The notes below the pieces were generated by a model that made no database searches, was not told where the DNA came from, and saw only the letters and a program-made list of their open reading frames with translations. A DNA stretch of 17,977 bases from Spirochaetaceae bacterium (GTDB lineage Bacteria > Spirochaetota > Spirochaetia > Treponematales > Breznakiellaceae): assembly GCA_031257255.1 (NCBI GenBank), contig JAIROZ010000119.1:1-17977 (forward strand), read 5' to 3'. Positions 6,550-16,701 of this stretch are shown here, piece by piece. Every line of letters begins with the position of its first letter. Position 1 is the stretch's first letter. The position numbers were made by a program, and so were the translations under genes.

Positions 6550-6640
6550 TCCGCAAAAACTGCCGTTAAAGGCGGAATTTTGCGTTATTATATAAAAAAT
6601 GCGGAATTTCGGGATATATCCATAAATTTCGCGCTTATTT

Positions 6641-6723
6641 GCGGCTATGGTGGAATTTGGTAGACACGCTAGCTTGAGGTGCTAGTGCCGAGAGGCATGG
6701 AAGTTCAAGTCTTCTTGGCCGCA
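6641..6723 (+). tRNA. tRNA-Leu, anticodon GAG, class II with a long variable arm
   Basis: Folded by hand: a 7-bp acceptor stem (GCGGCTA paired with TGGCCGC, discriminator A); U8; a 3-bp D-stem with G18-G19; an anticodon stem CTAGC/GCTAG; the loop TTGAGGT giving anticodon GAG with G37; a variable arm stem GCC/GGC; and a T-arm GGAAG-TTCAAGT-CTTCT. CCA is not encoded. Confidence 0.85.
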
Positions 6724-6746
6724 AAATTATTTGGACGCAAACCGCA

Positions 6747-10927: not shown

Positions 10928-11209
10928 ATGCCTACTTATGAATATCAGTGTAATAGTTGCGCCCATCAATTTGAGGCGTTTCAAAGTATGAAGGATGAGC
11001 CGCTTAAGACTTGTCCCAAATGCGGCGGCAAAATCCGGCGTCTAATAAATGGCGGCGGCGGCGTTATTTTTAAGGGCAGCGGATTTTACGCTACCGACAA
11101 AAAGAAGGAGAACGGCAAAAACGAAGGGGCGGCACCTTGCGCCGCATGTCCTGCCGCAAAGTCCGGCGAATGTCCTTCCGCCGCAAATGCCGAAAAAGCC
11201 TCCGCTTGA
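10928..11209 (+). CDS. FmdB-family zinc-ribbon protein (putative regulatory protein)
   Basis: The N-terminus MPTYEYQCNSCAHQFE...CPKCGG matches the FmdB/CxxC-x17-CPxCG family. It is followed by a Gly/Ala-rich tail with a further CxxC. Confidence 0.7.
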   Translation: MPTYEYQCNSCAHQFEAFQSMKDEPLKTCPKCGGKIRRLINGGGGVIFKGSGFYATDKKKENGKNEGAAPCAACPAAKSGECPSAANAEKASA

Positions 11210-11526
11210 AAAAGTCTCCCCGTTTTTTTTGCGATAATTGCGGTACCGAGGTGCCAAAGTTTGCCGAACGGTGCCCCAAATGCGGGCGGTATTTTGCGTC
11301 GATTCGCTGTCCAAAGTGCGGCTACCTTGGCGGTAATTCGGATTTTTCTAATGGATGTCCCCAATGCGGTTATTCATCATCCCCAAAAGCAAATGCCGCC
11401 GCTCATGTACAACGGACGGCGGGTCGCTCTCCTCATTCAAATGCGGGGGCGTCAATTCTTCTATTTATACTTACCGGGCTTTTTGTACTTGCCTGCTCGC
11501 TCTTACTGTATTTAATCACAAAATAA
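11206..11526 (+). CDS. Double zinc-ribbon membrane-anchored protein with four CxxC motifs and a C-terminal TM helix. The proposed start is a TTG that overlaps the FmdB TGA stop (TTGA).
   Basis: The motifs CDNC, CPKC, CPKC and CPQC are spaced as two zinc ribbons, and the C-terminal segment ILLFILTGLFVLACSLLLYLI is hydrophobic. The ORF track reports a 5'-longer form from 11137 that overlaps FmdB by about 70 nt; the TTG at 11206-11208 gives a non-overlapping, translationally coupled start. Confidence 0.5.
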   Translation: MKKSPRFFCDNCGTEVPKFAERCPKCGRYFASIRCPKCGYLGGNSDFSNGCPQCGYSSSPKANAAAHVQRTAGRSPHSNAGASILLFILTGLFVLACSLLLYLITK

Positions 11527-11650
11527 TGTTGTTTTCCTACCGGAAAAGCCATAAGTCTGACGGAGCGGCAGGCGGCGTATCCTTGCCGTTATTCAAAATT
11601 TGGAATAGCATTACAAGAAAGACAGCGCTAAAATCCAACCGGGTTTTAGG

Positions 11651-13996
11651 ATGACCGTCAGCATAGGGGATAATAGATTTGATATGCCGGTAGAACAGTA
11701 CACCGAATCCATAGTCTTGCGGGAAATGAAATGCGTGCCGGGCGAAAATGACTTTGGCTTTTGTTTTCCGCAGGGGGATGTCCCGCAGATAGATAAAGGC
11801 GAAGACGGCGCGGCGGTTAATGGCAAAGCGAAGCCGGAGTATTTAATTACATTTAATAAAAAGCCCGCCGTAATTATAGTTGTTGAATGTAAAAGAACGG
11901 CGGCGAAACATATTTCCGAAAAATTGGATAGACCCAAAGATTACGCGGTTGACGGCGTTTTGTATTACGCGAAGTTTTTAAAAGATGACTATAATGTTAT
12001 CGCTCTTGCGGTGTCCGGCACAAAAAAGGACAGTATAAGAGCCAACGCATATTATTGGCAGAAGGGGCGCGAAGAATACACAGAAATAAAAAAAGCCCGC
12101 GATATTATCTACGAGCCGGAAAATTATCTGCGGCTTGTGTCGGGCGAGGCGGTAAAAAAAGCGGTGTCAATTCAAGAGATACAGGAACTCGCGCTTGAAA
12201 TGCACGAATCGCTTCGCGGACTGTCGGTAACGGAACGGGCAAAGCCTGTATTCATTGCTGGAATTTTGATTGCCTTAAAAGATGAAGATTTTGTAAAGGA
12301 ATATCCTAATCTTGTTTCGTTTAATTCACTGCTTAACCGTCTGCAATACGCCATAAGTAATGTTCTTGAAAACAGCGATGTTCGTAAAGATAAAATAAAA
12401 GATATTAAAAGCCAATTTGACCGCATTGGTAGAATAGAAAAACTAAAGAATATACCTCTAGGTCATTACAATTCTCTTTTGTGGTATATTGAAAAACTCG
12501 AAAAAAAGATTAAACCGATGATGGATTTTGCTGATAACACCATTGACGCATTGGGTATTTTCTATCACGAATTTGTAAAATATTCAGGCGGAGACGGGAG
12601 CGGACTTGGAATTGTTTTAACTCCGCAGCATTTAACGGAATTCATGTGTGATTTAGCGGAAGTCAACAAGAATAGCAAGATTGTAGATATATGCTGCGGT
12701 TCAGGAACATTCCTTGTTACCGCGATGAGCAAAATGTTCAAGGGCGCAAACGATAAAGACATTGCGCGTATACGCAATGAATCGCTTTTTGGCATTGAAA
12801 GTAATGATGAAATATATACGCTTGCTGTGGCAAACATGATTGTGCGTGGAGATGGAAAATCAAATATTATTTTTGGCGATTGTTTTAAGCAAAACATTAT
12901 TGATGAATTAAAACAAAAAAACATTAACATAGGCTTAATAAATCCGCCGTATTCTCAAGATATAACCGAACTTGAATTTGTCGAGAATATGCTTGACATT
13001 TTAACTACCGGCGGAACCGGCGTTGTGGTTGTGCCTATGTCCTGCGCTATTGGTACTAAATCAAAAGAAACGCGCTTACGGCTTTTTAAGAAACATACAT
13101 TAAAAGCGGTTTTTTCTATGCCGGATGATATTTTTTATTCAAAAAATGTAAATACAAGTGTTTGCGTAATGGTATGGGAAGCGCATAAACCGCATGACTC
13201 GGCAAAAACAACATTTTTCGGCTACTACAAAGACGATGGTTTTGTTAAGGCAAAAAAACTGGGGCGTATTGACAAGTTCAATAAATGGAAAAGCATCGAA
13301 GATGAATGGCTTAGGCTCTACCGTGAGCGGGAAACCAAAGAAGGAATAAGCGTGAAAAAGTCTGTTGATTGGAACGATGAATGGCTTTGCGAGGCGTATA
13401 TGGAAACGGATTATTCTGTCTTAGCGCAGGAGGATTTTGAATTAACCGTTAGAAAAAATCTTGCTTATCTTATTTTTTCAGGCAAGGCAAATTTAGATAA
13501 TAATAAATTCAAAAATACAAAAAGACAATTTTATGATGTCATGGAATGGGGCGTTTTTAATTTGACAGAATTATTTTCGATTGAACGCGGCGTCCGGCTT
13601 ACAAAAGAAAACCGCATACAAGGTGATATTCCGCTTGCTACAGCCGGTGAAACAAATGAAGGCATATCATCGTATATTTCAAACGATGATATGCAAATTT
13701 ACGCCAATGTATTAACAATAGATATGTTTTGTAATTGTTTTTACCGTGATTATGATTTTGCCTGCGATGATAATATACTGGTTTTATTTCCCAAATTTGA
13801 ATATAACAAGTATGTTTTGCTTTTTATGGCAGCAATTATTGGGGCAGATAAATACCGTTATGCTTACGGCAGACAATACCGGCAAAAGAATTTTCGTGAA
13901 CATAAAATAAAACTCCCTGTAGGTAAAAACAAAATTCCTGACTGGCAATTTATGGAAAATTATATAAAATCATTGCCGTATAGCGAAAAAATATAG
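11651..13996 (+). CDS. Single-polypeptide Type IIG-like restriction-modification enzyme: an N-terminal PD-(D/E)xK nuclease-like domain, an HsdM_N-like helical domain, a gamma-class N6-adenine DNA methyltransferase, and a C-terminal HsdS-like target-recognition domain
   Basis: The AdoMet motif I is VDICCGSGTFLV. The motif IV NPPY is diagnostic of N6A/N4C amino-methyltransferases. GIVLTPQHLTEFMCDL resembles the HsdM FxGxxYTP region. HESLRGLSVTERAKPVFIAGILIALKD follows the HsdM_N pattern. The N-terminus has D...(about 25 aa)...ECK (IIVVECKR), consistent with a PD-ExK catalytic core. The last 220 aa or so resemble a half-HsdS TRD. The gene has markedly lower GC than its neighbours. Confidence 0.65.
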   Translation: MTVSIGDNRFDMPVEQYTESIVLREMKCVPGENDFGFCFPQGDVPQIDKGEDGAAVNGKAKPEYLITFNKKPAVIIVVECKRTAAKHISEKLDRPKDYAVDGVLYYAKFLKDDYNVIALAVSGTKKDSIRANAYYWQKGREEYTEIKKARDIIYEPENYLRLVSGEAVKKAVSIQEIQELALEMHESLRGLSVTERAKPVFIAGILIALKDEDFVKEYPNLVSFNSLLNRLQYAISNVLENSDVRKDKIKDIKSQFDRIGRIEKLKNIPLGHYNSLLWYIEKLEKKIKPMMDFADNTIDALGIFYHEFVKYSGGDGSGLGIVLTPQHLTEFMCDLAEVNKNSKIVDICCGSGTFLVTAMSKMFKGANDKDIARIRNESLFGIESNDEIYTLAVANMIVRGDGKSNIIFGDCFKQNIIDELKQKNINIGLINPPYSQDITELEFVENMLDILTTGGTGVVVVPMSCAIGTKSKETRLRLFKKHTLKAVFSMPDDIFYSKNVNTSVCVMVWEAHKPHDSAKTTFFGYYKDDGFVKAKKLGRIDKFNKWKSIEDEWLRLYRERETKEGISVKKSVDWNDEWLCEAYMETDYSVLAQEDFELTVRKNLAYLIFSGKANLDNNKFKNTKRQFYDVMEWGVFNLTELFSIERGVRLTKENRIQGDIPLATAGETNEGISSYISNDDMQIYANVLTIDMFCNCFYRDYDFACDDNILVLFPKFEYNKYVLLFMAAIIGADKYRYAYGRQYRQKNFREHKIKLPVGKNKIPDWQFMENYIKSLPYSEKI

Positions 13997-14005
13997 AGGC
14001 GTAAA

Positions 14006-14824
14006 ATGAATGGCGGACTTACTACCGTGTTGTTTTTGGACTCCGGGGCGGGGGGGCTTCCTTACCGCGCCGCATTCGCCGCCCGTAATCCGTCCGTCAA
14101 AACGGTGTACATAGCGGATAACGCGAACTTTCCGTACGGACCCAAATCGAAAGACTGTTTGAACGCGCTGCTTTCCGCGCTTGCGGCATCGTTAGTCCGG
14201 CGTTTTGCGCCGGATATTATCGTTCTGGCGTGCAATACCGCTTCGGTAACGGCGCTTGACGCTCTCCGCGCCCGCTTCCCGAACCTTCCGTTTGTAGGCA
14301 CAGTGCCGGCGGTAAAACCAGCCGTCTTCCATAGCAGGACGGGCATAGCCGGCGTACTCGGCACGGAACGCACCACCGCCGACCCGTATCTGGACAAACT
14401 CCTTGCCGGGGCAAACGCGGAAGCGGGCAAAAACTGTACTATGCTGCACAGAGCAGCGCCGGAACTTGTCGAATTTGCCGAAAATGAATTTTGGGATGCC
14501 GGAGAGTCGGCAAAAAATGCCGCCGTCCAAAAGTACATAGACTACTTCCGCGAAAGAGGCGCGGACGCGCTCGTTCTGGGCTGCACTCATTTCTTGCTGC
14601 TGCTCGATAATTTTGCCGCCTGCTCCGGGGGGATGGCTGTCTTCCATTCGATAGACGGAGTTTGCCGTCAGATAGAGAGAACGCTGGGTCTGACAGCCGT
14701 TGCGCCGTCCGGCGCGGCGGCTGGCGCGGCAGAGGCGGATTTGTACATTACCGGTGGGATGGACGGCGCAAAGTGGGCGAAGGCAGCCCGCTATTTCAAT
14801 TTGAGGGCGCGGGCGCTCGTATGA
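14006..14824 (+). CDS. murI: Glutamate racemase
   Basis: Signatures FLDSGAGGL and ACNTAS are present (catalytic Cys), followed by the second catalytic Cys region (GCTHF). It starts 9 nt after the R-M gene stop, and a GAGG SD lies within that gene's 3' end. Confidence 0.85.
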   Translation: MNGGLTTVLFLDSGAGGLPYRAAFAARNPSVKTVYIADNANFPYGPKSKDCLNALLSALAASLVRRFAPDIIVLACNTASVTALDALRARFPNLPFVGTVPAVKPAVFHSRTGIAGVLGTERTTADPYLDKLLAGANAEAGKNCTMLHRAAPELVEFAENEFWDAGESAKNAAVQKYIDYFRERGADALVLGCTHFLLLLDNFAACSGGMAVFHSIDGVCRQIERTLGLTAVAPSGAAAGAAEADLYITGGMDGAKWAKAARYFNLRARALV

Positions 14825-15204
14825 AGTTTACGCTTGACACCGGCAGCGGCGTACCCGTTTACCGGCAACTGATTCAGCAGATAGAGAACGCGGCGGCATC
14901 GGGGCGCATGAAGGCGGGCGACAAACTGCCGACCATAAGGGCGCTCTCTGTGGAACTCAAAGTGAATCCGAACACTATATCAAAGGCGTACAATGAACTC
15001 GAAATTCGGGGTATACTGACAACTCAGGTTGGAAGCGGGACATTTATTTCCGCTCAAAGACCGGAAGTCCACGATGACTGGAAGGAAAAAAAGATACAGG
15101 AAGCCGTTTTTCGTTTTTTACGGGAGATGGACGAACTCGGAGTTGACACGGACGCGGCAGTGCTCGCTTTGCGGAATGCCGCCGTCCCAAATACTTCGCA
15201 ATAA
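14821..15204 (+). CDS. Small GntR-family (YhcF-like) transcriptional regulator
   Basis: VPVYRQLIQQIENAAASGRMKAGDKLPTIRALSVELKVNPNTISKAYNELEIRGIL.T..G.GTF is a canonical GntR winged-HTH. The ATG at 14821 overlaps the murI TGA stop (ATGA). The ORF track's longer form (from 14662) lies inside murI and is rejected. Confidence 0.7.
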   Translation: MKFTLDTGSGVPVYRQLIQQIENAAASGRMKAGDKLPTIRALSVELKVNPNTISKAYNELEIRGILTTQVGSGTFISAQRPEVHDDWKEKKIQEAVFRFLREMDELGVDTDAAVLALRNAAVPNTSQ

Positions 15205-16293: not shown

Positions 16294-16701
16294 ATGATGA
16301 AGTCTAAAATTAATGGTTGTTTCCGCGTATCTACGGGAACAAAAAAAATGGCGCGTATTTTCGCGCTTGCGGCGGTTATCGCTTTGGTATTTGCGGCGTG
16401 CGACCTGTTTAAGGAGGAAGAGGAACCAAAATACAACGGTGTTTTCCTTAAAAACGGAACGCAGGACGAGTACGAGTATTCTGTTGAATTCTACACAGGC
16501 GCATCTTGGAAAGAAATGAAGAAAGAAAAGATTGCGGTAGGAGAAACAAAATTTTATGACAAAGGCGGATATGATGATAGACACAGAATATTATTTAGTA
16601 AAGACGAGAAAGTAATTGACAAAGAAATTTACATAGAAAAAGAACCGGTAAAAAAGAAAATAATTTATGTTTGTAACGGTACCGAGATAAAACTGGAATA
16701 A
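16294..16701 (+). CDS. Small AT-rich lipoprotein of unknown function. An alternative start is the internal Met at 16348.
   Basis: A GGAGGG SD lies 6 nt before the ATG at 16294. The signal peptide and lipobox are MARIFALAAVIALVFAAC. The mature part is Lys/Glu-rich and has no recognisable family. GC is markedly lower than the window average. Confidence 0.55.
   Translation: MMKSKINGCFRVSTGTKKMARIFALAAVIALVFAACDLFKEEEEPKYNGVFLKNGTQDEYEYSVEFYTGASWKEMKKEKIAVGETKFYDKGGYDDRHRILFSKDEKVIDKEIYIEKEPVKKKIIYVCNGTEIKLE

What the first reader, a model, noticed from the sequence alone, without database searches (positions are those of the whole stretch)
11527..14005. An AT-rich island encoding a solitary fused nuclease-methyltransferase-TRD (Type IIG-like) restriction-modification enzyme, jammed against murI
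The 781-aa ORF has, in one chain, a D...ExK nuclease-like N-domain, an HsdM_N-like helical region, the N6A methyltransferase motifs I (DICCGSGTF) and IV (NPPY), and a C-terminal half-HsdS-like TRD. This is the BpuSI/MmeI-style Type IIG layout, rather than a Type I system with separate R, M and S genes, and there are no companion R, S or control genes. Its base composition is visibly far more AT-rich than the flanking zinc-ribbon and murI genes, which argues for horizontal acquisition. It ends 9 nt before the essential murI start, and the murI SD lies inside it, so the island either rides on or now supplies murI transcription. If the nuclease domain is intact, this is a self-contained defence gene; if it is degenerate, it is an orphan N6A methyltransferase with epigenetic potential.
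Basis: partly seen in the sequence, partly recalled or inferred. Interest (0 to 1): 0.6.

Follow-up and report, generated by a model that had tools for sequence, protein, structure and literature searches.

The report
Single-chain BcgI/HaeIV-type restriction-modification gene
This is an ordinary member of a large, horizontally spread family of one-protein restriction-modification enzymes (nuclease + adenine methylase + one DNA-reading domain). Its only unusual feature is a 17-residue deletion in the nuclease domain, which may have weakened DNA cutting.

Summary
A 781-aa ORF (11651-13996; likely true start 11684, 770 aa) encodes four parts in order. These are an N-terminal PD-(D/E)XK nuclease (invariant P62-E63...E79-C80-K81), a helical connector, a gamma-class N6-adenine methyltransferase (DICCGSGTF, NPPY) and one HsdS-type target recognition domain (TRD). 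It is AT-rich (GC 0.38 against 0.50), solitary, and stops 9 nt before murI.

The Type IIG reading is supported but needs sharpening. The gene belongs to the BcgI-like (Type IIB) lineage, not the MmeI/BpuSI lineage. Its closest relatives (up to about 86% identity) are split "RM + two-TRD S" operons. Its TRD is 76% identical to the second TRD of one such S subunit. The one-TRD single chain is the layout the literature describes for HaeIV, a homodimer that reads a symmetric bipartite site and cuts on both sides.

The family is large: 1004 representative clusters at E<=1e-30. Fused and split forms are intermixed in the tree.

One point is new. This copy alone among 111 scorable close homologues lacks 17 ordered, conserved residues (a helix plus an invariant GGKP turn) next to the catalytic strand, so nuclease competence is uncertain.

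No empty-site comparison was possible.

Verdict: a new member of a known kind, of low to moderate interest.

The parts
11651..13996 (+). Whole ORF, 781 aa including the stop codon. The likely true start is ATG 11684 (770 aa).
   Evidence: ORF list and translation. Homologues start at the residue matching M12, and DNA similarity to other cassettes starts at about 11672. NCBI MDR0551562.1 is 770 aa; the JGI call is 781 aa.
11684..12160 (+). N-terminal PD-(D/E)XK nuclease domain (aa 12-170).
11834..11893 (+). Catalytic motif P62-E63 ... E79-C80-K81.
   Evidence: These residues are invariant in 50 of 50 aligned sequences. [quoted passage not shown] That E63 is the residue equivalent to BcgI Glu53 is my inference; no alignment to BcgI was made.
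11798..11821 (+). Junction of a 51-nt in-frame deletion (aa 50-57, GEDGAAVN). It replaces a conserved helix, the GGKP turn and part of the following loop.
   Evidence: DNA alignment to three homologous genes and protein alignment. The QG[DN]-to-PE[YF] spacing is 21 only here, against 38 in 107, 39 in 2 and 37 in 1 of the other scorable best hits. The segment is ordered in the intact-domain model, block pLDDT 82-91, and below 50 in the window model.
12161..12541 (+). Multi-helical connector (aa 171-297), comparable to the N-terminal helical part of HsdM.
   Evidence: Seven helices in the model. Foldseek aligns 460-650 columns with HsdM proteins and the BsaXI RM subunit.
12542..13270 (+). Gamma-class SAM-dependent N6-adenine DNA methyltransferase domain (aa 298-540). 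Motif I DICCGSGTF is at 12686-12712 and motif IV NPPY at 12941-12952.
   Evidence: Pfam N6_Mtase 1.9e-27. StySJI M protein 2okc 2e-15. Motif residues are invariant.
13271..13534 (+). Post-methyltransferase segment with the C-terminal 'tail' helix (aa 593-609) and a roughly 20-aa linker.
   Evidence: Split homologues end just after this helix. The BsaXI paper describes such a tail as packing with the S-subunit conserved regions in M2S complexes (PMC11997821).
13535..13993 (+). Single HsdS-type target recognition domain (aa 629-781).
   Evidence: Pfam Methylase_S 3.8e-11. PADLOC Specificity_II 1.1e-25, matching the second half of a 341-position profile. It is 76% identical to TRD2 (aa 154-306) of the separate S subunit in L001, with DNA similarity over 13555-13993.
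13994..14008 (+). RM stop codon (TAG), 9-nt spacer with GAGG, and murI start codon.
   Evidence: Sequence. No terminator-like site lies between the genes. The same junction is seen in L016, 99.7% identical.
14006..14824 (+). murI (glutamate racemase), the downstream neighbour. It is followed by GntR (14821-15204) and an SPFH gene.
   Evidence: Pfam Asp_Glu_race. Homologues are named glutamate racemase. The gene calls in L016 agree.

Best explanation
The gene encodes a self-contained restriction-modification enzyme of the BcgI-like (Type IIB, within Type IIG/IIC) lineage, in the single-chain, one-TRD form.

Shown here:
- One chain carries a PD-(D/E)XK nuclease, a helical connector, a gamma-class N6-adenine methyltransferase with a C-terminal tail helix, and one HsdS-type TRD.
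- It has no partner genes.
- Its nearest relatives are two-gene operons, an RM gene of about 618 aa plus an S gene of about 308 aa with two TRDs.
- Its TRD is a close homologue of the second TRD of such an S subunit.

Inferred by analogy with HaeIV, BcgI and half-size Type I S subunits:
- Two chains pair, giving the equivalent of the BcgI A2B assembly with two identical, inverted TRDs.
- The dimer reads a symmetric bipartite site (half-site, 5-7 unspecified bp, complementary half-site).
- Each methyltransferase domain methylates one adenine per half-site, which protects host DNA.
[quoted passage not shown] Several complexes are probably needed, because each chain has only one catalytic centre.

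In this copy a 17-residue in-frame deletion has removed a conserved helix and an invariant GGKP turn just before the catalytic strand. Cleavage may therefore be weakened or lost while methylation persists. I put that at roughly even odds.

The gene was most likely acquired horizontally. It now sits directly upstream of murI and is probably co-transcribed with it.
For: Architecture and family:
- Pfam N6_Mtase and Methylase_S.
- PADLOC REase_MTase_IIG 9e-98 covers profile positions 58-610 of 614. Specificity_II matches the C-terminus.
- Full-length AF2 model: pLDDT 83, pTM 0.72. Its Foldseek matches are HsdM proteins, the BsaXI RM subunit (8w2p_A, 1.4e-15), BpuSI and DrdV.

Nuclease domain:
- P62, E63, E79, C80, K81 and the methyltransferase motif residues are invariant across 50 sequences.

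Relation to split systems:
- Split relatives P0029 and P0031 have an overlapping downstream S gene of 308-309 aa.
- Fused relatives P0003 and P0088 stand alone between housekeeping genes.
- The window TRD is 76% identical to TRD2 of the L001 S subunit. DNA similarity skips the RM stop, the S start and TRD1.
- Fused and split forms are intermixed in the NJ tree, and the window protein is sister to a split form.
- TRD identity is decoupled from RM identity.

Literature:
- HaeIV is written 2 x R~gammaM~[GAY]. It is a homodimer that reads the symmetric site GAY N5 RTC and cuts on both sides (PMC3874165 Table 4; PMC4081073).
- HaeIV has a single predicted TRD (supplementary table of PMC11997821).

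Deletion.

Horizontal origin: GC values, phyletic spread, plasmid copies.

murI junction.
Against: - No activity, recognition site or oligomeric state was or could be measured.
- No direct sequence comparison with HaeIV or BcgI was possible. HaeIV is 953 aa, so it is probably from a different RM lineage and is only an architectural analogue.
- The effect of the deletion is unknown. The catalytic residues are intact.
- Outside the deletion the protein departs from none of the 207 strongly conserved columns scored.
- A relative-rate count shows no excess of window-specific changes in the nuclease domain compared with the rest of the protein: 16 against 8 in the N-domain, 18 against 8 elsewhere. 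So there is no sign of ongoing decay.
- The deletion is seen in only one assembly.
- No empty site was found in relatives, so acquisition rests on composition and patchy distribution alone.
Confidence: 0.8

Rival explanations
1. The gene is a nuclease-dead survivor. The deletion has abolished cleavage, so the gene now acts only as a solitary (orphan) N6-adenine methyltransferase with a symmetric bipartite motif. It is kept for epigenetic effects, or simply because it is transcriptionally tied to murI.
For: - The 17-aa deletion removes 7 residues that are conserved in at least 94% of 49 homologues, including an invariant L and an invariant G-K-P.
- It is unique among the 111 scorable sequences of the 120 best hits.
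- The lost element is ordered in the intact-domain model.
- The family contains many natural nuclease-less M~TRD chains of about 620-650 aa that start with Met at the helical connector. Loss of cutting is therefore a recurrent outcome.
- The methyltransferase and TRD parts are fully conserved.
Against: - All catalytic-motif residues are retained.
- There is no excess of lineage-specific substitutions in the N-domain.
- The reading frame is intact.
- The deleted piece lies between core strands, not within them.
Confidence: 0.4
2. The gene is an MmeI/BpuSI-type Type IIG (IIL) enzyme. Such an enzyme is a monomer that reads a continuous asymmetric site, methylates one strand and cuts on one side about 20 bp away.
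For: - The domain order is the same.
Against: - The TRD is Pfam Methylase_S and PADLOC Specificity_II, homologous to one half of a two-TRD S subunit.
- Sequence and profile searches of the PDB find HsdM proteins and BsaXI, but not BpuSI, MmeI or DrdV.
- The closest relatives are RM + S operons.
Confidence: 0.05
3. The gene is a fragment or variant of a Type I system, an HsdM-HsdS fusion whose HsdR motor subunit is encoded elsewhere. The N-terminal domain would then be only an HsdM extension.
For: - The best sequence matches to solved structures are Type I M subunits.
- The contig is only 18 kb, so the rest of the genome was not seen.
- Sources annotate the protein as a 'type I restriction-modification system DNA methylase subunit'.
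Against: - The N-domain is a PD-(D/E)XK nuclease fold with an invariant catalytic motif.
- The curated Type IIG profile matches from aa 60 to 608 at 9e-98, far better than any Type I M profile, the best of which is 2.6e-29.
- None of the five relatives' loci inspected has an hsdR neighbour.
Confidence: 0.03

Closest known systems
HaeIV (Haemophilus aegyptius), a single-chain Type IIB/IIG enzyme written 2 x R~gammaM~[GAY]
   Same: One polypeptide carries a nuclease, a gamma-class N6A methyltransferase and a single TRD, with no partner genes. This is the layout the literature assigns to a homodimer that reads a symmetric bipartite site and cuts on both sides (PMC3874165, PMC4081073, and the supplementary table of PMC11997821).
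   Different: HaeIV is 953 aa against 770-781 aa here. No sequence comparison was possible, and the RM part here is BcgI-sized. The likeness is therefore one of architecture and probable mechanism, not shown common descent of the whole chain.
BcgI and BcgI-like two-subunit Type IIB systems (an RM subunit of about 626-637 aa with a C-terminal tail, plus an S subunit with two TRDs)
   Same: - The RM part (about 610 aa) has the same domain order and size.
- It matches PADLOC Type IIG profiles 614 and 637 positions long.
- The closest relatives (about 67-86% identity in the alignment) are exactly such RM + S operons.
- The TRD is 76% identical to TRD2 of such an S subunit.
- The catalytic motif is of the PE...ExK form. 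BcgI Glu53 is part of its PD...EXK motif (PMC3592470).
   Different: Here the specificity module is fused to the RM chain and reduced to one TRD. The site should therefore be symmetric rather than asymmetric, and no separate S gene is needed.
AloI, PpiI, TstI and CjeI, single-chain Type IIB enzymes of about 1250-1300 aa
   Same: They are single-chain R~M~S enzymes with HsdS-type TRDs.
   Different: They carry two TRDs with conserved regions, plus a 'knob' domain (PMC11997821). They read asymmetric sites. TstI is a homotetramer (PMC4027205).
BpuSI, MmeI and DrdV (Type IIG/IIL)
   Same: They have an N-terminal PD-(D/E)XK nuclease followed by a gamma-class methyltransferase in one chain. Structural similarity is detectable.
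   Different: Their TRDs are of a different type. No sequence-level match was found. They read continuous asymmetric sites and cut on one side.
Type I HsdM/HsdS methyltransferase cores, including half-size S subunits that dimerise
   Same: The methyltransferase domain and TRD are homologous. The logic of two identical TRDs giving a symmetric site is the same.
   Different: There is no ATP-driven HsdR motor. Instead the nuclease domain is fused in cis to the methyltransferase.

Membership tests
BcgI-like Type IIB / Type IIG(IIC) combined restriction-modification enzymes | N-terminal PD-(D/E)XK endonuclease domain with catalytic residues | tested here: met
BcgI-like Type IIB / Type IIG(IIC) combined restriction-modification enzymes | Gamma-class N6-adenine methyltransferase domain (motif I before NPPY/F/W) in the same chain, C-terminal to the nuclease | tested here: met
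   Pfam N6_Mtase 1.9e-27 at aa 298-539. DICCGSGTF is at aa 346-354 and NPPY at aa 431-434, and the motif residues are invariant.
BcgI-like Type IIB / Type IIG(IIC) combined restriction-modification enzymes | HsdS-type specificity module, either as a separate S subunit or as the C-terminus of the RM chain | tested here: met
   Pfam Methylase_S 3.8e-11. PADLOC Specificity_II 1.1e-25. The TRD is 76% identical to TRD2 of a separate S subunit.
BcgI-like Type IIB / Type IIG(IIC) combined restriction-modification enzymes | No ATP-dependent translocase domain or subunit | tested here: met
   Only N6_Mtase and Methylase_S pass the Pfam cut-offs. There is no helicase gene on the contig or next to the homologues inspected. 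The rest of the genome was not seen.
BcgI-like Type IIB / Type IIG(IIC) combined restriction-modification enzymes | Match to a curated Type IIG RM profile over the whole RM part | tested here: met
   PADLOC PDLC03608 scores 9e-98, aligning aa 60-608 to profile positions 58-610 of 614. PDLC03602 scores 2.3e-66.
BcgI-like Type IIB / Type IIG(IIC) combined restriction-modification enzymes | [quoted passage not shown] | not testable with these tools
   This needs cleavage mapping and a methylome.
HaeIV-form (single chain, one TRD, homodimer) | A single polypeptide R~M~TRD with exactly one TRD | tested here: met
   There is one Methylase_S stretch. The model shows one TRD after the tail helix. The C-terminus aligns with only one half of the two-TRD S profiles.
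HaeIV-form (single chain, one TRD, homodimer) | Homodimer that recognises a symmetric bipartite sequence | not testable with these tools
   Inferred from HaeIV (PMC3874165, PMC4081073). No multimer prediction or biochemistry was available.
HaeIV-form (single chain, one TRD, homodimer) | Sequence homology to HaeIV itself | not tested
Its length (953 aa) differs.
MmeI/BpuSI-type Type IIG (IIL) | MmeI/BpuSI-type C-terminal TRD, with sequence similarity to that family | tested here: not met
   The TRD is of the HsdS type. BpuSI, MmeI and DrdV are absent from PDB sequence and profile searches up to E=1. Only fold-level similarity is seen.
Type I restriction-modification system | Separate HsdR subunit with an SF2 helicase motor, and separate M and S genes | tested here: not met
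   R, M and S functions are in one chain. There is no hsdR on the contig or in the relatives' loci.
Orphan (solitary) DNA methyltransferase | Methyltransferase active with no functional cognate nuclease | tested here: inconclusive
   The nuclease motif is kept, but a conserved 17-aa element is deleted. There is no sign of relaxed constraint elsewhere. Nuclease-less relatives exist.

The most novel reading that the evidence does not exclude
This copy may have been caught part-way from a restriction enzyme to a solitary methyltransferase. A single in-frame deletion would have disabled, or re-tuned, the nuclease of a HaeIV-form Type IIB enzyme. The methyltransferase and TRD stay fully conserved, and the gene has become fixed because it is now the transcriptional and translational lead-in to the essential murI gene. 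If so, the conserved helix and GGKP element would be identified as necessary for cleavage in the BcgI-like nuclease domain.
Probability: 0.2. Interest if true: 0.4.

Novelty: new member of a known kind. Interest (0 to 1): 0.25.

Why it matters
It matters little beyond annotation.

- **Annotation.** The gene should be labelled a Type IIB/IIG (BcgI-lineage, HaeIV-form) restriction-modification enzyme. The current source labels 'N-6 DNA methylase', 'type I M subunit' and 'RsmD' are wrong or too vague.
- **TRD exchange.** In termite-gut bacteria closely related RM modules alternate between a two-gene form (RM plus a two-TRD S) and a one-gene, one-TRD form, and they exchange TRDs. This is a natural counterpart of laboratory TRD-swap experiments.
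- **Candidate functional element.** The unique deletion marks a conserved helix and GGKP turn in the nuclease domain whose role could be tested.

Tried and rejected
1. **Empty-site test.**
   - murI was searched in genome contigs and metagenome contigs. Only relatives of 37-49% identity were found.
   - The large protein search found one 99% identical murI, which shows the same junction as the window. The next best are at most 57% identical and lie beside tsaB-like or tilS-like genes.
   - Synteny is not conserved, so neither presence nor absence of the insert in relatives could be scored.
2. **Independent check of the deletion.** The exact-sequence look-ups of the 781-aa and 770-aa products found nothing on record. 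The cluster look-up ties both the NCBI and the JGI protein call to a single 17,977-nt contig. The deletion is therefore not independently confirmed.
3. **Insertion scars.** No convincing flanking direct or inverted repeats and no mobility genes were found. The short repeats listed are at chance level.
4. **Mosaic origin of the higher-GC N-terminal 540 nt.** Identity profiles against three homologous genes show no clear breakpoint, and homologues show a similar GC pattern along the gene. Rejected.
5. **Relaxed constraint in the nuclease domain.** A relative-rate count against sister sequences shows no domain-specific excess.
6. **Other systems.** The MADS (NCBIfam antiphage_MADS2, 32 bits against a cut-off of 720) and BREX PglX matches are weak methyltransferase-domain hits only. 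Rejected.
7. **Promoter and terminator scan.** Only weak 9/12 promoter-like matches were found, as expected in AT-rich DNA. One lies at 13942-13970, just upstream of murI. No terminator lies between the genes. This is suggestive only.
Full report
**1. Observation**

The window is one whole 17,977-nt contig of a Spirochaetaceae metagenome-assembled genome. ORF 11651-13996 (+) encodes 781 aa.

All 49 aligned homologues begin at the residue matching M12. DNA similarity to other copies of the gene starts about 12 nt before that ATG, at 11684. NCBI annotates 770 aa (MDR0551562.1) and JGI 781 aa. The 770-aa form is therefore the likelier product.

The nuclease motif is P62-E63...E79-C80-K81, not D...ExK.

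The gene has GC 0.381 and GC3 0.367. The rest of the window has GC 0.502, and murI has 0.589 (GC3 0.641).

The stop codon TAG (13994-13996) lies 9 nt before the murI ATG (14006). A GAGG at 13996-13999 overlaps the last base of the stop codon. An independent Logan assembly, L016 (1,866 nt, 99.7% identical), shows the same junction.

The neighbours are housekeeping genes: pyrB/pyrI, a GHMP kinase, two zinc-ribbon genes, murI, GntR, SPFH and luxS. None is an R, S, control or mobility gene.

**2. What it is**

Profile matches:
- Pfam finds N6_Mtase at aa 298-539 (1.9e-27) and Methylase_S at aa 632-773 (3.8e-11).
- PADLOC's Type IIG RM profile PDLC03608 matches aa 60-608 at 9e-98, covering profile positions 58-610 of 614.
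- A second Type IIG profile, 637 positions long, scores 2.3e-66.
- The C-terminus matches the second half of a 341-position 'Type II specificity subunit' profile.
- BcgI's RM subunit is 637 aa (supplementary table of PMC11997821). The profile lengths fit that size class, but I cannot say which enzymes the profiles were built from.

Structure:
- The full-length AlphaFold model (pLDDT 83, pTM 0.72) has five parts. These are an alpha-beta-beta-beta-alpha-beta-beta N-domain, seven connector helices, a Rossmann-type methyltransferase, a tail helix at aa 593-609, and one TRD.
- Its Foldseek matches are HsdM proteins, the BsaXI RM subunit (8w2p_A, 1.4e-15), BpuSI (4.7e-15) and DrdV.
- The N-domain of the intact homologue P0018 models at pLDDT 92.
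The N-domain is a PD-(D/E)XK nuclease, not a plain HsdM extension.

Residues P62, E63, E79, C80 and K81 are invariant in 50 of 50 sequences. [quoted passage not shown] I take E63 to be the equivalent residue, but no alignment to BcgI was made.

**3. Which lineage**

Sequence and profile searches of the PDB return Type I M subunits and BsaXI. They never return BpuSI, MmeI or DrdV. The homologue search shows two architectures:
- Fused chains of about 780-805 aa with a TRD, 53-76% identical by BLASTP.
- Chains of about 618 aa without a TRD, which are the closest relatives at up to 84% by BLASTP (86% in the alignment).

In two loci inspected (L001, with a second short contig L002, and L003), the 618-aa genes are followed by a 4-nt-overlapping S gene of 308-309 aa with two TRDs. 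That S gene matches PADLOC Specificity_II over its full length. This is the BcgI A+B layout. Fused relatives P0003 and P0088 stand alone between housekeeping genes.

The window's TRD (aa 629-781) is 76% identical to TRD2 (aa 154-306) of the L001 S subunit. At DNA level, window 11672-13470 matches the L001 RM gene and 13555-13993 matches the TRD2 part of its S gene. The 84-nt stretch between them stands in for about 500 nt that hold the RM stop, the S start and TRD1.

In an NJ tree of the RM part the two architectures are intermixed, and the window protein is sister to a split form. TRD identity is decoupled from RM identity. For example, P0003 is 80% identical in the RM part but 40% in the TRD, while P0016 is 67% in both. 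Fusion, fission and TRD exchange are therefore frequent in this family.

The family is large. There are 1004 representative clusters (50% identity) at E<=1e-30, and both architectures are common among the best 150. It occurs in several phyla and on plasmids.

**4. How it most likely works**

The reviews list three primary forms of Type IIB enzyme (PMC4081073; PMC3874165 Table 4):
- BcgI: 2 RM + S.
- AloI: R~M~TRD~TRD.
- HaeIV: 2 x R~M~[one TRD].

The literature treats HaeIV as acting as a homodimer that uses two copies of one specificity domain, reads the symmetric site GAY N5 RTC, and cuts on both sides (PMC4081073; PMC3874165). The window protein has that third layout, built on a BcgI-sized RM module.

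My inference is as follows. Two chains pair through the tail and C-terminal helices. The two identical TRDs read a symmetric bipartite site. Each methyltransferase modifies one adenine per half-site. Unmethylated sites are cut on both sides, probably by several complexes together, as in BcgI (PMC3592470; PMC3177199 abstract).

The domain identities are shown. The dimer, the site symmetry and the activities are inferred.

**5. The one oddity**

The window protein lacks 17 residues that every one of the 49 aligned homologues has. Homologues read DK-LEKALKKAGGKPxxCxLxDYSQGGNGKAKPEY, whereas the window reads DK-GEDGAAVNGKAKPEY. This is a clean 51-nt in-frame deletion relative to three homologous genes.

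Evidence on the deletion:
- Of the 120 best hits, 111 could be scored for the spacing between the QG[DN] and PE[YF] motifs. It is 38 in 107, 39 in 2 and 37 in 1. It is 21 only in the window protein.
- All 8 of the protein's departures from columns conserved in at least 94% of the homologues lie in or beside the deletion. None lies in the other roughly 200 such columns.
- In the intact-domain model the lost piece is an ordered helix (residues 37-46) plus the invariant GGKP turn. It sits between strand 1 and the strand that carries the catalytic PE.
- In the window model the same region has pLDDT below 50.

Against decay:
- The catalytic residues are kept.
- Window-specific substitutions show no excess in the nuclease domain compared with the rest of the protein: 16 against 8 in the N-domain, 18 against 8 elsewhere.

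The family also holds many natural nuclease-less M~TRD chains of about 620-650 aa, so loss of cutting does recur. I rate impaired cleavage at about even odds. The deletion is known from one assembly only.

**6. Island and murI**

Low GC relative to the flanks is also seen for the homologous cassettes in L001, L003 and L004. With the patchy distribution across phyla, this supports horizontal acquisition.

No empty site could be examined. Apart from the near-identical L016, the nearest murI genes are at most 57% identical and lie beside different genes. No insertion scars or mobility genes were found.

Co-transcription of murI with the RM gene is plausible, given the 9-nt gap, the absence of a terminator-like site, and only a weak promoter-like match at 13942-13970. 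It is unproven.

**7. Verdict**

The gene is a new member of a well-known, abundant kind. Its interest is low to moderate and rests mainly on the unique nuclease-domain deletion and on the close interchange between split and fused forms.

Noticed in passing
P0242, P0296, P0313, P0340, P0355, P0371, P0378, P0383, P0076 (homologues, not in the window): Many relatives of about 620-650 aa start with Met directly at the helical connector. They carry a methyltransferase and one TRD but no nuclease domain. These are natural nuclease-less single-chain forms of the same family.
   Followed up: partly
L001 6001-8783; L002 223-3005; L003 6001-8783: Split relatives have the S gene overlapping the RM stop by 4 nt. 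The S subunits are short (308-309 aa) with two TRDs and only brief linkers, not long coiled-coil conserved regions. TRD2 of L001 is the close homologue of the window's TRD, while TRD2 of L003 is only 41% identical.
   Followed up: partly
window 10928-11526: Two consecutive zinc-ribbon genes sit upstream. The first is a Zn_ribbon_8 (FmdB-type) gene. The second is a double-zinc-ribbon protein with a hydrophobic C-terminal tail. The second starts at a TTG (11206) that overlaps the first gene's TGA stop (TTGA).
   Followed up: no
window 16294-16701: A second AT-rich patch (GC 0.373) encodes a 135-aa protein with a lipoprotein-like signal sequence (…VFAAC) and no Pfam match. It lies between the SPFH gene and luxS.
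   Followed up: no
window 14821-15204: The GntR-family gene probably starts at 14821, overlapping the murI stop by 4 nt as called in L016, rather than at the TTG at 14662 given by the mechanical ORF list. If so, murI, GntR and SPFH look like one operon.
   Followed up: partly
window 6640-6724: A tRNA-Leu (anticodon GAG) lies between flgM and a branched-chain amino-acid permease gene.
   Followed up: no
window 11798-11813 and 14065-14080: The GC-rich sequence at the deletion junction (GGCGAAGACGGCGCGG) is 88% complementary to a 16-mer inside murI. By a rough count this is about what chance would give in 3 kb, so I did not read anything into it.
   Followed up: partly
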